Source of the DNA: Candidatus Odinarchaeota archaeon
GTDB taxonomy: Archaea > Asgardarchaeota > Odinarchaeia > Odinarchaeales > Odinarchaeaceae
Direction: 5' to 3'
NCBI GenBank assembly: GCA_038826135.1
Contig: JAWBON010000025.1
Location: 1-8,848, forward strand
Length of the DNA stretch: 8,848 nucleotides
Numbering within the stretch: the first letter of the stretch is position 1; every line of letters begins with the position of its first letter. The notes under the pieces are model-generated. The model worked only from the letters and a program-made list of their open reading frames with translations, ran no database searches and was not told where the DNA came from. Position numbers and translations under genes: made by a program. Below are positions 2,403 to 7,402 of this stretch, in pieces.

Positions 2403-2831
2403 CTAGCTTAACTTAAATATGGCTAGTGCTTGAAGACCTGCGAACGCTATTATTATAAGAGCTAAGCCGGCTATGATCAACGCATAAGCGTAGCTTGGAT
2501 TATAAACGTTTTTCGCACTCTCATACATGGACATGAAGCCTATGAAGCCGAGAAACATTAACAGGGATGCTGCTAAACCTTCTAAAAGAAATTGCTCATC
2601 TATACCGCCGCCTAAAGATGCGGTGAATATTAATACAGGTGTGCCGGATGAAGTTTGACCTACAGCTATAGGCTGGTGCACGATATCGTAGATTCCTCCA
2701 GCTAGAAGGAAATATATTAAGAATATGATTACTATAAACCAGAATGTTCGAGACGGCGCCTTAGGTAATTTTAAAACCGGTTTCGAGAGTTTCGTTTTAA
2801 TTTTTCTCCAAATTTTCGATAGTTGATTCAT
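2403..2831 (-). CDS. OSTC/DC2-like (OST3/OST6 family membrane region) oligosaccharyltransferase accessory subunit, 142 aa, 3 TM
   Basis: YFLLAGGIYDIVHQPIAVG and QFLLEGLAASLLMFLGFIGF resemble eukaryotic OSTC (recalled as [20 protein letters not shown] and [20 protein letters not shown]); no thioredoxin domain; GGTG SD 5 nt before ATG. Confidence 0.8.
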   Translation of the reverse strand: MNQLSKIWRKIKTKLSKPVLKLPKAPSRTFWFIVIIFLIYFLLAGGIYDIVHQPIAVGQTSSGTPVLIFTASLGGGIDEQFLLEGLAASLLMFLGFIGFMSMYESAKNVYNPSYAYALIIAGLALIIIAFAGLQALAIFKLS

Positions 2832-4796: not shown

Positions 4797-6050
4797 TTAA
4801 GCGAGCGTTACTTCGATTTCCTCACCGAGGATTTCTTTAAGCTTCTCGGCTAGGGTTTTTAAATCTCTGTCTATTTTACCTTCTAGATTTTGGATCAGAG
4901 TTTCTATCTGGTCAGCGACTACTTTTTTATCGGCAAGCTGTTTTTCTATCTCCTCTATTTTAGATATTATAATCTCGGATTCTTCTATCAAACCTTTTTC
5001 AGCGATGATTGTTTTCAACTTTTCTTTTAATTCAATTGAAGCTTTAGCTTTAACATACAGTTCATCTAAAAATTCATCCCCTAATATTCTGCTGATTTGT
5101 TTAATAGCTCTGTCAGCTCTATCCTGTTTTAATTCCAGCTCATTGTCTAGGAGACTTCGCTGAAGAACTTTCAAAATCTGTTTCAACGCAGGTAACCCTT
5201 CTGTTTCAGATATGAAGGTGTTAAATGGCTCTGATATGTATTTATCAATCGTGTTTCTCTGCTCAGCTGTTAAATCAGCAAGCGCTTTAGATGAACTCTT
5301 AGTTAGTTTCGCTAAAGGTTTAAGAACAGGGTTTATTAGCATATTGAAGCTACGCCGAATATTATTTAACTCTTCATCAGCTTTCATATGCTCTTTCTGT
5401 AAACCTGTAGTCTTGAACTTTAAGTAGTTGTCTTCTTCAGTTTTAAGCTGTTTTTCTATTTCACATATTTCAATTTTAACTGATTCAAATTTATCTTGAA
5501 GATTTTTTTTCTCTTTTACTGATTCGATAAGCATGTTAGCCGAGTCGATTATTTTATCAACCCGTTCAATCTCCTTGTATTCTTTGAGTAGAAATTGATT
5601 GGTTTTATCAACCAGTTCGGCTAGTTTACGGATGTTGAAGTCTAAATCTTTAAGCTCTGTTTTAAACCAGGGAGTCATTTTAGGCACGAGCTTGCGACCA
5701 AGCTCGTTAATATTTAGAAAAAAATTTTTTACCTCGCTGTTAAGATTCATTAAACTATTATAGCTGCAGTTTTCATCAATCTTGATTTTATTAAGGTATT
5801 CTAGTATACTGTTACTTAGTTTTTCAGAGGCTTTAACAGCTAATTCATGGCTTTTAACATCTCCCTCCATTGTTTTAAACGCTTCCCGGCCTTTGCTTGT
5901 TAAAAATTTCTCAGCTGAGAGTTTTACCTGCCCTATTAAATCAATGATTTTCTGTTTACTTAACTGGGCTTTCACACGAAGGGGAGAGTAGCGTTTATCG
6001 TTTTTCTTATTAACATAGTCTTTAACCTCATCCAGCCTTATTTTAATCAT
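4797..6050 (-). CDS. Hypothetical all-helical/coiled-coil protein, about 417 aa
   Basis: Long K/E/L-rich heptad stretches flanking a central helical segment; no Walker A, no TM segment. ATG 6050 overlaps the end of dys and lies 6 nt after GAGCGTG (alternative start GTG 6059). Confidence 0.75.
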   Translation of the reverse strand: MIKIRLDEVKDYVNKKNDKRYSPLRVKAQLSKQKIIDLIGQVKLSAEKFLTSKGREAFKTMEGDVKSHELAVKASEKLSNSILEYLNKIKIDENCSYNSLMNLNSEVKNFFLNINELGRKLVPKMTPWFKTELKDLDFNIRKLAELVDKTNQFLLKEYKEIERVDKIIDSANMLIESVKEKKNLQDKFESVKIEICEIEKQLKTEEDNYLKFKTTGLQKEHMKADEELNNIRRSFNMLINPVLKPLAKLTKSSSKALADLTAEQRNTIDKYISEPFNTFISETEGLPALKQILKVLQRSLLDNELELKQDRADRAIKQISRILGDEFLDELYVKAKASIELKEKLKTIIAEKGLIEESEIIISKIEEIEKQLADKKVVADQIETLIQNLEGKIDRDLKTLAEKLKEILGEEIEVTLA

Positions 6051-7008
6051 TTTTTTCACGCTCAGTTTTCGATAAGCGTTCTTTAACAGCTGCTACAATT
6101 ATAGGAAGAACTATTGTCGCGTCAGCGATTAAATCCACCCAAGGGGCTTCACTTTTAATTTTACCCCATGATTGAGCTTCTCCAAGCGAGGCGCCGCTTA
6201 AACCACCAGGTTCAGGTCTGTCCATAGTTATCTGGATAGCGTAGTCGAATCCTCTTCCAGTGATCAGCATAGTCTGTAATATATGGTTTTTAGGAACACC
6301 GCCTCCGACTGATATGACGGCTGCGCGCTTAGATTCATAGGCCATGTCAATCATTTTTTGAATGTCTTTAAGAACATCCACTACTAGTGGTTTCCGCTGA
6401 CGGAAAAGCCATAGTTGAAGGCCTAGTATAGAATCTGTTATAGCCGGGCAGAAGACTGGGATGTTTTTTTCAACAGCGTTTTTTACTATAGAGTTCTCGT
6501 CGGTAAGGTGTCTTCCTATTTCCCATATTAATTCATACACTGCTATGCCTTTTTCACTTTTAACAGGATCTATTTCGCCAAGTATCCTTTGAATATTTTT
6601 CTCAAAATTTACGAACTCCCTGTTTCTCACATATATATCGTATATTCTGTTTATTCCAAGCCTGTGAAGATGAATATCACTGTAAGTTTTTGAGAGCCGG
6701 ATATGATGTCCGCCGAAGGCTTCAATAAGATCATGGGTTAAATTAGCCCCTGTTGTAACTATCGCGTTAATGTAATCTTCTCTCATCAAATCAACTACAA
6801 CTTTCCGCATACCAGCCGGTACTAGTGCGCCAGCTAAGCCTAAAAATCTTAAAGCTTCTTTATCAGACGCTATTTTCTCTAAAATATTCGCGGCTTCGCT
6901 GAGACGGCCTGCACCGAAAGCCCCGGATCTTTCAAATTGAAGCATTAACTCGTTTAATGACATCCCTGTTTTAATATTAATTGGGTGAACGAATCTTTCC
7001 TGATCCAT
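6043..7008 (-). CDS. dys: Deoxyhypusine synthase (aIF5A modification)
   Basis: FLGLAGALVPAGMR, IVTTGANLTHDLIE, NRIYD, FCPAITDSILG, GGGVPKNH and GGLSGASLGEAQSWGKI with the catalytic Lys of SWGK; GGGG SD 6 nt upstream of ATG. Confidence 0.95.
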   Translation of the reverse strand: MDQERFVHPINIKTGMSLNELMLQFERSGAFGAGRLSEAANILEKIASDKEALRFLGLAGALVPAGMRKVVVDLMREDYINAIVTTGANLTHDLIEAFGGHHIRLSKTYSDIHLHRLGINRIYDIYVRNREFVNFEKNIQRILGEIDPVKSEKGIAVYELIWEIGRHLTDENSIVKNAVEKNIPVFCPAITDSILGLQLWLFRQRKPLVVDVLKDIQKMIDMAYESKRAAVISVGGGVPKNHILQTMLITGRGFDYAIQITMDRPEPGGLSGASLGEAQSWGKIKSEAPWVDLIADATIVLPIIVAAVKERLSKTEREKND

Positions 7009-7112: not shown

Positions 7113-7120
7113 TTTATATA
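7113..7120 (+). promoter_or_regulatory. TATA box TTTATATA of the tRNA gene
   Basis: Consensus archaeal TATA 33-40 nt upstream of mature tRNA position 1. Confidence 0.65.
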
Positions 7121-7167
7121 ATAATGGGTTTTTTATGAGTATTGATTAATATAGCGGGGTGGGGTAG

Positions 7168-7192
7168 GCTACCGTTAATAAGGTGGGCCTAT
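7168..7192 (+). other. tRNA intron 1, position 15/16, 25 nt
   Basis: hBHBh': TG(7160-61)/CA(7194-95); central helix GGGT(7162-65)/GCCT(7187-90) with two G:U pairs; bulges AG|G and AT|T; outer helix CTACC/GGTGG (5 bp). Confidence 0.8.
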
Positions 7193-7199
7193 TCAGGAG

Positions 7200-7213
7200 A
7201 CCTTTGGCTTGAA
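7200..7213 (+). other. tRNA intron 2, position 20a/21, 14 nt
   Basis: Central helix CAGG(7194-97)/CTTG(7208-11); bulges AG|A and AA|A; outer helix CC/GG closing a TTT loop. Confidence 0.82.
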
Positions 7214-7230
7214 ATCCCGCGGGGCTCATA

Positions 7231-7247
7231 AAGAGAGCCCTGGAGAA
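7231..7247 (+). other. tRNA intron 3, canonical position 37/38, 17 nt (relaxed BHB)
   Basis: Removal restores CTCATA|ACCCCG. Central helix CTCA/GGAG has one A.G mismatch; bulges TA|A and AA|A; outer helix only AG/CT. Confidence 0.85.
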
Positions 7248-7255
7248 ACCCCGAG

Positions 7256-7281
7256 ACAAGCACGAATAGTACTTGCGGGAA
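7256..7281 (+). other. tRNA intron 4, position 45/46, 26 nt
   Basis: Perfect central helix CCCG(7250-53)/CGGG(7276-79); bulges AG|A and AA|A; outer helix CAAG/CTTG. Confidence 0.88.
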
Positions 7282-7307
7282 ATCGATGGTTCAAATCCAT
7301 CCCCCGC

Positions 7308-7337
7308 ACAGAATTATAGAACATGATTCTGGGGGAT
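7308..7337 (+). other. tRNA intron 5, position 71/72 in the acceptor stem, 30 nt
   Basis: Central helix CCCC(7302-05)/GGGG(7332-35); bulges GC|A and AT|T; 9-bp outer helix CAGAATTAT/ATGATTCTG. Removal gives CCCCGC|TACCA, restoring U72, A73 and CCA. Confidence 0.85.
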
Positions 7338-7367
7338 TACCAATGTCTCCTAAGTGGCGTATGCCAA

Positions 7368-7389
7368 CCCCGCTACCAATCCCCTGCTA
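7368..7389 (+). repeat. Two tandem downstream copies of the intron-less tRNA 3' end
   Basis: 7368-7380 CCCCGCTACCAAT equals spliced 7302-7307 + 7338-7344 (13/13). 7379-7389 ATCCCCTGCTA equals mature positions 63-73 with one substitution (10/11). Confidence 0.8.
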
Positions 7390-7393
7390 AAGA

Positions 7394-7402
7394 TTCTTTT
7401 TT
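7394..7402 (+). terminator. Oligo-T terminator candidate (TTCTTTTTT) for the tRNA transcript
   Basis: First T-run downstream of the tRNA; lies after the 3'-end repeats and before the convergent DUF35 stop at 7415. Confidence 0.5.

What the first reader, a model, noticed from the sequence alone, without database searches (positions are those of the whole stretch)
7153..7342. Initiator tRNA-Met gene interrupted by five BHB introns, with exons as short as 5, 7 and 8 nt
Seen in sequence: removing 7168-7192, 7200-7213, 7231-7247, 7256-7281 and 7308-7337 gives an exact 78-nt archaeal initiator tRNA, and all ten cut sites fall at the 2|1 position of 3-nt bulges flanking 4-bp helices. Introns make up 112 of the 190 nt. 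Established: archaeal splicing endonuclease cuts BHB motifs, and multi-intron tRNAs occur mainly in Thermoproteales, where I recall a maximum of about three per gene. Inference: five introns may be unprecedented, standard tRNA finders would miss or truncate this gene, and an essential tRNA here depends on five splicing events.
Basis: partly seen in the sequence, partly recalled or inferred. Interest (0 to 1): 0.95.

Follow-up and report, generated by a model that had tools for sequence, protein, structure and literature searches.

The report
Five-intron initiator tRNA gene, Odinarchaeia
The only gene for the tRNA that starts protein synthesis in this Odinarchaeia (Asgard) archaeon is cut into six pieces of 5 to 26 bases by five short enzyme-spliced introns; the gene is real and conserved, and common tRNA finders miss it, but equally fragmented Asgard tRNA genes were reported in 2024-2026, so it is an extreme member of a known kind.

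Summary
Removing 7168-7192, 7200-7213, 7231-7247, 7256-7281 and 7308-7337 leaves a 78-nt tRNA-Met(CAU) with initiator marks (A1:U72, three G:C pairs closing the anticodon stem, encoded CCA). It is 76/78 identical to intronless initiator tRNA genes of other Asgard archaea, and the two differences form one compensatory T-stem pair. The cut sites set by that homology coincide with bulge-helix-bulge (BHB) cut positions. Four central helices are 4/4 paired; the canonical 37/38 intron has 3/4.

The window belongs to an Odinarchaeia MAG. The same gene sits in synteny in five other Odinarchaeia species. Exons are 78/78 identical everywhere, introns are 56-91% identical with compensatory stem changes, and a sister family has a sixth intron at 59/60. 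It is single-copy, also in a closed relative. Two EndA paralogues (alpha/beta type) and RtcB are present. ARAGORN and the Rfam tRNA model miss it.

"Unprecedented" does not hold. An October 2026 preprint reports up to five intervening sequences per gene in other Asgard families, and this scan had already flagged this gene in other Odinarchaeia genomes.

The parts
7113..7121 (+). TATA-box-like element TTTATATAA, centred about 36 nt before the mature 5' end (inferred promoter, implying a 5' leader of roughly 10 nt)
   Evidence: Read from the sequence. Conserved in the three other genomes of the genus. Not tested experimentally.
7153..7167 (+). Exon 1, 15 nt: tRNA positions 1-15 (acceptor 5' strand, D-stem 5' strand, A14 G15)
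   Evidence: Identical in six Odinarchaeia species. Contiguous with exon 2 in ten other Asgard genomes.
7168..7192 (+). Intron 1, 25 nt, at 15/16
   Evidence: BHB: H GGGU/GCCU 4/4 (two G.U), bulges AG|G and AU|U, h' 5 bp. Local BHB fold -9.1 kcal/mol. Three h' pairs show changes on both sides across species.
7193..7199 (+). Exon 2, 7 nt (UCAGGAG): D-loop 16-20a including G18 G19
   Evidence: Invariant in six species. The same D-loop is uninterrupted in other Asgard tRNAi genes.
7200..7213 (+). Intron 2, 14 nt, at 20a/21
   Evidence: BHB: H CAGG/CUUG 4/4, bulges AG|A and AA|A, h' 2 bp with a 3-nt loop. Weak on its own at +0.5 kcal/mol. The G.U in H becomes G-C in the sister family.
7214..7230 (+). 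Exon 3, 17 nt: positions 21-37, including anticodon CAU
   Evidence: Invariant in six species.
7231..7247 (+). Intron 3, 17 nt, at the canonical 37/38 position
   Evidence: Relaxed BHB: H CUCA/GGAG 3/4 (A35.G), bulges UA|A and AA|A, h' 2 bp. The outer helix is the 5-bp anticodon stem. H is 4/4 (CUCA/UGAG) in the sister family. The boundary is ambiguous by +/-1 nt here but unambiguous in the sister family.
7248..7255 (+). Exon 4, 8 nt: positions 38-45
   Evidence: Invariant in six species.
7256..7281 (+). Intron 4, 26 nt, at 45/46
   Evidence: BHB: H CCCG/CGGG 4/4, bulges AG|A and AA|A, h' 4 bp. The local MFE equals the BHB. One h' pair switches G-C to C-G in the sister family. H uses positions 40-43, so it excludes the anticodon stem.
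7282..7307 (+). Exon 5, 26 nt: positions 46-71 (T arm and most of the acceptor 3' strand)
   Evidence: Invariant in the genus. Split once more at 59/60 in the sister family.
7308..7337 (+). Intron 5, 30 nt, at 71/72 in the acceptor stem
   Evidence: BHB: H CCCC/GGGG 4/4, bulges GC|A and AU|U, h' 9 bp. Local MFE equals the BHB at -13.3 kcal/mol. Two A-U pairs become G-C in the sister family. Its removal creates U72, A73 and the CCA end.
7338..7342 (+). Exon 6, 5 nt (UACCA): U72, A73, CCA
   Evidence: Invariant in six species.
7343..7378 (+). Conserved 3' trailer. GUCUCCU (7345-7351) is complementary to AGGAGAC (7195-7201). A second copy of CCCCGCUACCA (7368-7378) repeats the tRNA's own 3' end
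   Evidence: Conserved in the four genomes of the genus and absent from the sister family. The MFE fold of 7145-7400 pairs both segments with exon 2 and the acceptor 5' strand. Function unknown. A 66-nt intron that used this second copy has no BHB in any register.
7394..7402 (+). Oligo-T run (TTCTTTTTT), candidate archaeal terminator
   Evidence: Read from the sequence. Inference only.

Best explanation
This is the functional, single-copy initiator tRNA-Met gene of an Odinarchaeia (Asgard) archaeon, interrupted by five protein-spliced (BHB) introns at 15/16, 20a/21, 37/38, 45/46 and 71/72. Inferred mechanism: one transcript runs from a TATA-like box to an oligo-T stretch. Each intron folds with the exon bases just 5' of it into a bulge-helix-bulge. 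A heterotetrameric (alpha-beta)2-type EndA cuts after the second base of each 3-nt bulge. RtcB joins the six exons, RNase P and 3' trimming finish the ends, and the CCA end is encoded. The helix of BHB 4 uses positions 40-43, which are also the 3' strand of the anticodon stem that BHB 3 needs. Introns 3 and 4 therefore cannot be presented in the same fold, which implies an order of removal or alternating conformers. BHBs 2 and 3 are weak alone and probably depend on context. Shown here: the gene anatomy, the motifs, conservation and covariation, single-copy status, and presence of the enzymes. Inferred: transcription limits, actual splicing and its order.
For: The spliced 78-mer is tRNA-Met(cat) by ARAGORN and folds into a cloverleaf. 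It is 76/78 identical to intronless Asgard tRNAi genes, which score 62.5 bits with Rfam tRNA, and the two differences are the two sides of one T-stem pair. Ten other Asgard genomes have exon 1, exon 2 and the start of exon 3 contiguous. All junctions coincide with BHB cut positions, with H 4/4 in four introns and 3/4 in one, far above shuffles. Six Odinarchaeia species carry the gene next to the deoxyhypusine synthase gene. Exons are 78/78 identical in all 15 pairs, while introns are 82-91% identical within genera and 56-61% between families, much like the flanks. In the BHB structure 92.4% of cells pair against 22-54% when partners are slid, and six pairs change on both sides. There is one locus only in this 93%-complete MAG and in a closed 1.4-Mb relative. 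Two EndA paralogues of about 190 aa are present. One matches the Aeropyrum pernix endonuclease chain 3P1Z_B at 1e-43 over its full length and has YxDLR...HSPF...RKK motifs; the other lacks the His. RtcB is present. PMC5829648 assigns Asgard archaea the (alpha-beta)2 EndA with the L1 loop that gives broad specificity. Heavy interruption is genome-wide: 28 of 34 resolved tRNA genes have introns.
Against: Intron 3 has a mismatch in its central helix, and BHBs 2 and 3 are not stable alone (+0.5 and +1.8 kcal/mol). Whole-precursor MFE folds show BHBs 4 and 5 but not 2 and 3 in register. With relaxed BHB rules other D-arm splice solutions exist. The assembly is 93% complete, so a second copy cannot be excluded in this strain itself. 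The EndA subunit roles and the L1 loop were not examined structurally.
Confidence: 0.88

Rival explanations
1. A four-intron gene. One 38-nt intron (7168-7205) replaces introns 1 and 2, exon 2 is not used, and part of 'intron 2' (GGCUUGAA) serves as the D-loop.
For: My intron-aware search also returns this solution: H GGGU/ACCU 4/4, h' 2 bp, and an acceptable cloverleaf.
Against: Ten other Asgard genomes carry GGGGTAG-TCAGGAG-A uninterrupted, and the full intronless genes match the five-intron product at 76/78. TCAGGAG is invariant in six species, whereas GGCTTGAA changes to GGCCTGAA in the sister family; that change turns a G.U of BHB 2 into G-C. In the sister family the alternative helix drops to 3/4 (read from the sequences). 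The alternative D-loop has its two G's in the wrong place.
Confidence: 0.03
2. A decaying or unspliced pseudogene. The working initiator tRNA is encoded elsewhere, for example in the 7% of the genome that was not assembled.
For: The MAG is 93% complete, and no RNA data are available.
Against: There are zero exon substitutions across two families while introns and flanks diverge to 56-61%. BHB stems change in a compensatory way. The closed relative has one locus only; its second 12-mer hit lies inside an open reading frame. No other tRNAi-like sequence exists in this assembly.
Confidence: 0.03
3. Only four introns are removed. The 71/72 element stays or the transcript ends before it, giving a tRNA with A1.A72 and a CCA added after transcription.
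For: The four-intron product passes a 6/7 acceptor-stem filter.
Against: BHB 5 is the strongest motif: -13.3 kcal/mol, MFE identical to the BHB, CCCC/GGGG plus 9 bp. It has two compensatory pairs. Its removal restores the A1:U72, A73 and CCA seen in intronless Asgard tRNAi genes, and UACCA is invariant in six species.
Confidence: 0.03

Closest known systems
[quoted passage not shown] 2024, PMC11291895); Freyr-, Jordi- and Atabeyarchaeaceae (bioRxiv 10.64898/2026.10.13.758758)
   Same: Same phylum and same kind of intron: short, BHB-bounded, often in the D arm and at other non-canonical sites. Most genes are interrupted. Up to five intervening sequences in one gene are reported, and standard annotation misses many.
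   Different: A different class (Odinarchaeia), which the preprint's main text does not mention. Here the gene is the single initiator tRNA. A sister family has six introns. The gene is missed entirely by ARAGORN and Rfam. Whether tRNAscan-SE detects it could not be tested; the preprint's census only sees genes that tRNAscan-SE detects.
Multiple-intron tRNA genes of Thermoproteales (Sugahara 2008 as cited in PMC8450103; e.g. Pyrobaculum calidifontis, 71 introns in 46 genes)
   Same: BHB introns at canonical and non-canonical positions, removed by (alpha-beta)2 EndA with broad specificity. The genome-wide load is similar (at least 1.5 per resolved gene here, against 1.54).
   Different: The stated maximum there is three per gene. 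It is a different phylum. No sign of intron copies elsewhere in this genome was found, unlike the intron transposition proposed for Thermoproteales.
Nuclear tRNA genes of the red alga Cyanidioschyzon merolae with up to three ectopic BHB introns (PMC3728597)
   Same: Several BHB introns per gene, including in the D arm and T loop. Ordered removal was shown experimentally, with the 37/38 intron last. That is a precedent for the order inferred here from the clash between BHB 3 and BHB 4.
   Different: A eukaryote, at most three introns, and supported by RNA evidence, which is lacking here.
Intronless initiator tRNA-Met genes of other Asgard archaea (loci L094, L096)
   Same: 76/78 identical to the spliced product, with the same D-loop, anticodon arm and acceptor stem.
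   Different: No introns. Other Asgard tRNAi genes seen here have 0-3 introns at partly different positions.

Membership tests
Archaeal BHB (EndA-spliced) tRNA intron | Central 4-bp helix flanked by two 3-nt bulges on opposite strands, with the cut after the second bulge base | tested here: met
   Introns 1, 2, 4 and 5 have H 4/4 and 3-nt bulges with the cut at 2|1. Intron 3 has H 3/4 (relaxed) here and 4/4 in the sister family. Shuffles rarely reach this.
Archaeal BHB (EndA-spliced) tRNA intron | At least one flanking helix (h exonic or h' intronic) | tested here: met
   h' is 5, 2, 2, 4 and 9 bp. The exonic helix h is 2 bp for intron 1 and 5 bp (the anticodon stem) for intron 3.
Archaeal BHB (EndA-spliced) tRNA intron | Excision at the motif's cut sites yields an exact mature tRNA | tested here: met
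   The 78-mer is tRNA-Met(cat) and is 76/78 identical to intronless homologues.
Archaeal BHB (EndA-spliced) tRNA intron | Structure maintained in evolution while the sequence drifts | tested here: met
   92.4% of cells pair against 22-54% when slid, and six pairs have double changes. Introns are 56-61% identical between families against 100% for exons.
Archaeal BHB (EndA-spliced) tRNA intron | Splicing endonuclease of a broad-specificity type, and an RNA ligase, encoded in the genome | tested here: met
   Two EndA paralogues are present. One is catalytic-like and matches 3P1Z_B at 1e-43; the other lacks the His. RtcB is present. The L1 loop was not examined; PMC5829648 reports it for Asgard EndA.
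Archaeal BHB (EndA-spliced) tRNA intron | Spliced RNA and excised (circular) introns observed | not testable with these tools
Archaeal initiator tRNA-Met | Anticodon CAU, A1:U72, three consecutive G:C pairs (29-31:39-41), standard cloverleaf | tested here: met
   Read from the ARAGORN drawing and the MFE cloverleaf. A1:U72 exists only after intron 5 is removed.
Archaeal initiator tRNA-Met | Orthology with recognised tRNAi genes | tested here: met
   76/78 identical to L096 and 75/78 to L094, both called tRNA-Met(cat) by ARAGORN and scoring 62.5 bits with RF00005.
Split (trans-spliced) or permuted tRNA gene | Exons on separate loci or in permuted order | tested here: not met
   All six exons are colinear on one strand within 190 nt.
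tRNA pseudogene | Relaxed constraint on exon sequence, with a functional copy elsewhere | tested here: not met
   No exon substitution in six species. A single locus in the closed relative.

The most novel reading that the evidence does not exclude
The Odinarchaeia initiator tRNA gene (five introns in this genus, six in the sister family) would be the most fragmented cis-spliced tRNA gene lineage documented. It would also be more than a passive accumulation of introns. Splicing would follow an obligatory order, because BHB 4 and the anticodon stem needed by BHB 3 exclude each other. The genus-specific 3' trailer repeats the tRNA's own 3' end and is complementary to exon 2. It would act in cis as a surrogate acceptor strand or folding guide, holding the precursor together while the true acceptor 3' strand is locked in BHB 5. 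The supply of the one initiator tRNA would then be gated by EndA activity.
Probability: 0.2. Interest if true: 0.7.

Novelty: new member of a known kind. Interest (0 to 1): 0.5.

Why it matters
An essential, single-copy tRNA is invisible to ARAGORN and to the Rfam tRNA model in every Odinarchaeia genome examined. "Missing tRNA" calls and tRNA-based quality measures for these genomes may therefore be wrong; PMC5829648 already noted incomplete tRNA sets in Asgard genomes. The gene adds Odinarchaeia to the intron-rich Asgard lineages. It also offers a clean comparative series for one orthologous gene: 0-3 introns in other Asgard archaea, five in one genus, six in its sister family. With ten cut sites, two weak motifs and one built-in structural conflict, it is a demanding natural substrate for studying EndA specificity and splicing order.

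Tried and rejected
1. ARAGORN (with introns allowed) and Rfam at gathering score found nothing in the window. Rfam in E-value mode gave a 17.9-bit, wrongly aligned tRNA hit.
2. I looked for a second tRNAi gene. BLAST of the spliced product and an anticodon-arm search of the own genome found only this locus. A C74 hit lies in what looks like coding sequence. A second 12-mer hit in the closed relative lies inside an open frame.
3. A long 66-nt 3' intron using the downstream copy of CCCCGCTACCA has no BHB in any of eight registers. The discriminator base of that copy varies within the genus. Rejected.
4. The single 38-nt D-arm intron is rejected by homology.
5. GC-island scanning to locate hidden tRNA genes was not discriminating, giving 1213 islands. 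I replaced it with my own intron-aware cloverleaf search.
6. BLAST of the five introns against the genome found no related copies, so there is no support for recent intron transposition.
8. No supplementary files are held for PMC5829648, so I could not see which Odinarchaeota LCB_4 tRNAs that study failed to predict.

Full report
**What is in the sequence.**
- Window 7153-7342 (+) was read directly. Joining the six proposed exons (15, 7, 17, 8, 26 and 5 nt) gives a 78-nt sequence.
- ARAGORN calls this product tRNA-Met(cat) with a complete cloverleaf, and its minimum-energy fold is the cloverleaf.
- It has A1:U72, G29-G31:C39-C41, A73 and an encoded CCA, which are the initiator marks.
- The unspliced locus is not found by ARAGORN with introns allowed, by Rfam at gathering score, or by a whole-genome RF00005 search at E <= 1. 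With permissive filters Rfam gives only a mis-aligned 17.9-bit hit.

**Organism.**
- The window is contig C25 of a 1.26-Mb, 105-contig, 38% GC MAG that is 93% complete.
- The neighbouring deoxyhypusine synthase is 83% and 81% identical to those of two Candidatus Odinarchaeota/Odinarchaeia MAGs.
- The window also encodes RadA, CDP-archaeol synthase and an OST3/OST6-like protein.
- This is an Asgard archaeon of the class Odinarchaeia, not a member of the Thermoproteales.

**Independent proof of the spliced product.**
- Ten other Asgard genomes contain exon 1, exon 2 and the start of exon 3 as one uninterrupted string.
- Two of them (L094, L096) have fully intronless tRNAi genes. Rfam scores these at 62.5 bits and ARAGORN calls them tRNA-Met(cat).
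- The spliced product is 76/78 identical to L096. The two differences are the two sides of one T-stem pair, A-U against G-C.
- Homology therefore fixes every junction. Introns 1 and 5 are unambiguous here. Introns 2, 3 and 4 are ambiguous by one base here, and introns 3 and 4 are settled by relatives in which the flanking bases differ (read).

**The motifs.**
- At those junctions, an alignment-free check shows a 4/4 central helix, two 3-nt bulges cut 2|1 and an inner stem of 2-9 bp for introns 1, 2, 4 and 5.
- Intron 3, at the canonical 37/38 site, has 3/4 pairs (A35.G) with the anticodon stem as outer helix. In the sister family it is 4/4.
- Shuffling each intron in place reaches the observed quality in 6e-4, 5e-3, 4e-3, 5e-5 and <5e-5 of trials.
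- The local energies differ widely. BHB 5 is -13.3, BHB 1 is -9.1 and BHB 4 is -5.4 kcal/mol for the BHB itself (-8.5 for its MFE, which keeps the BHB and adds a 2-bp extension of the inner stem). BHBs 2 and 3 are about +1 kcal/mol on their own.
- The helix of BHB 4 uses positions 40-43, the same bases that form the anticodon stem on which BHB 3 relies. The two cannot coexist, which suggests ordered or alternating processing (inference). Ordered removal with the 37/38 intron last was shown experimentally in C. merolae (PMC3728597).

**Conservation.**
- The class holds seven species genomes. Six carry the gene, and in every locus where the flanks were fetched it lies next to the deoxyhypusine synthase gene.
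- The four genomes of this genus, one of them a closed 1.4-Mb chromosome, have five introns at the same sites. Two genomes of the sister family have these five plus a 30-nt intron at 59/60 (TTCA/TGAA helix, with the T stem as outer helix).
- Exons are 78/78 identical in all 15 pairs. Introns are 82-91% identical within genera and 56-61% between families, similar to the flanks.
- On the alignment the five BHB hairpins pair in 92.4% of cells against 22-54% when partners are slid by 1-3 columns. Six pairs show changes on both sides.
- None of the relatives' genes is found by ARAGORN or Rfam.

**Copy number and machinery.**
- No other tRNAi-like sequence exists in this assembly. The closed relative has one locus, and a second 12-mer match there lies inside an ORF.
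- The genome encodes two EndA paralogues of about 190 aa. One matches the Aeropyrum pernix endonuclease chain 3P1Z_B at 1e-43 and keeps Tyr/His/Lys-type motifs. The other lacks the His. This fits an (alpha-beta)2 enzyme.
- PMC5829648 assigns that enzyme type, with the broad-specificity L1 loop, to Asgard archaea, and notes that their tRNA sets could not be completed. RtcB is present.

**Genome context.**
- I wrote an intron-aware cloverleaf search and validated every spliced product with ARAGORN.
- It resolved 34 tRNA genes: 6 without introns, 10 with one, 16 with two, tRNA-Leu(UAG) with four, and this gene with five.
- That is at least 1.5 introns per gene, and about seven loci remain unresolved.
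- Several ARAGORN calls on the raw genome (three "Stop-tta", one "SeC") are mis-readings of two-intron or one-intron genes.

**Novelty.**
- The tRNAscan-SE 2.0 paper states that archaeal tRNA genes contain up to three introns (PMC8450103).
- Valentin-Alvarado et al. 2024 (PMC11291895) found 92-95% of tRNA genes interrupted in Atabeyarchaeia and Freyarchaeia.
- A preprint of October 2026 (10.64898/2026.10.13.758758) reports up to five intervening sequences in a single gene in three Asgard families. Its main text does not mention Odinarchaeia.
- Earlier notes of this scan had already flagged this same gene in other Odinarchaeia genomes, its six-intron form, and five-intron tRNAi genes in DPANN archaea. 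I re-tested only the Odinarchaeia claims.
- Five introns is therefore not unprecedented. This is an extreme, well-supported member of a known kind.

**Limits.**
- tRNAscan-SE and SPLITS were not available.
- The promoter, terminator, splicing order and any role of the conserved trailer are inferences.

Noticed in passing
window 7343-7378: The 3' trailer holds an 11-nt direct repeat of the tRNA's own 3' end (CCCCGCTACCA, 7368-7378) and GTCTCCT (7345-7351), which is complementary to the exon 2/intron 2 junction. Both are conserved in the four genomes of the genus and absent from the sister family. The MFE fold of 7145-7400 pairs them with the acceptor 5' strand and with exon 2. By my estimate an 11-mer repeat is unlikely by chance (about 1e-3), while a single 7-mer complement is not (about 0.3). 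It could be an integration or duplication remnant, or a folding aid acting in cis.
   Followed up: partly
L085 and L086 (genomes G002, G003), tRNAi locus: The sister Odinarchaeia family has a sixth, 30-nt intron at 59/60 in the T loop of the same gene (seven exons). Its BHB is of the hBH type: a TTCA/TGAA-type helix (TGAG, with one G.U, in G003) with the T stem as outer helix.
   Followed up: yes
G000 contig C75:2840-3018 (+): tRNA-Leu(UAG) with four introns, found only with relaxed BHB rules; the spliced product is validated by ARAGORN. ARAGORN on the raw DNA calls this region tRNA-Ile with a 328-nt intron.
   Followed up: partly
G000 contig C66:2350-2480 (-): A hidden tRNA-like gene that no tool found. 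It begins GGCCGGGGTGGGGTAG, ends CCCCGGCCCCA, and has an apparent 22-nt BHB intron at 53/54 plus further inserts. My search did not resolve it.
   Followed up: partly
G000 contigs C7:2249-2380, C60:6106-6220, C75:347-471, C45:293-381: ARAGORN's three 'tRNA-Stop(tta)' calls and its 'tRNA-SeC(tca)' call are mis-readings. The first three genes are two-intron Lys(UUU), Gln(UUG) and Glu(UUC), and the fourth is a one-intron Arg(UCG).
   Followed up: yes
G000 contig C16:2586-5357 (+): The RtcB Pfam match is split after model position 50 by about 470 codons within one 995-aa open frame. This looks like an intein-sized insertion.
   Followed up: no
G000 contigs C72:2-247 and C48:1-135: The catalytic-type EndA paralogue is cut by contig ends in this MAG. 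Its orthologue in the closed relative (L104) is a complete 188-aa gene.
   Followed up: partly
L093-L102 (other Asgard genomes): The tRNAi genes of other Asgard lineages carry 0-3 introns at varied sites (D loop 20a/21, 37/38 or nearby, the variable region, the T loop). This one orthologous gene records repeated intron gain.
   Followed up: partly
window 2403-2831 (-) and 4797-6059 (-): A 142-aa OST3/OST6-family protein, a family otherwise known from the eukaryotic oligosaccharyltransferase complex, and a 420-aa ORF with no Pfam match.
   Followed up: no
same genome, other contigs (earlier scan notes): First-stage notes report BHB-type introns inside several protein-coding genes of this genome (gatA, citG, gcvPA, a UPF0147 gene, an adenosine-kinase-family gene and one further gene). 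I did not check them.
   Followed up: no
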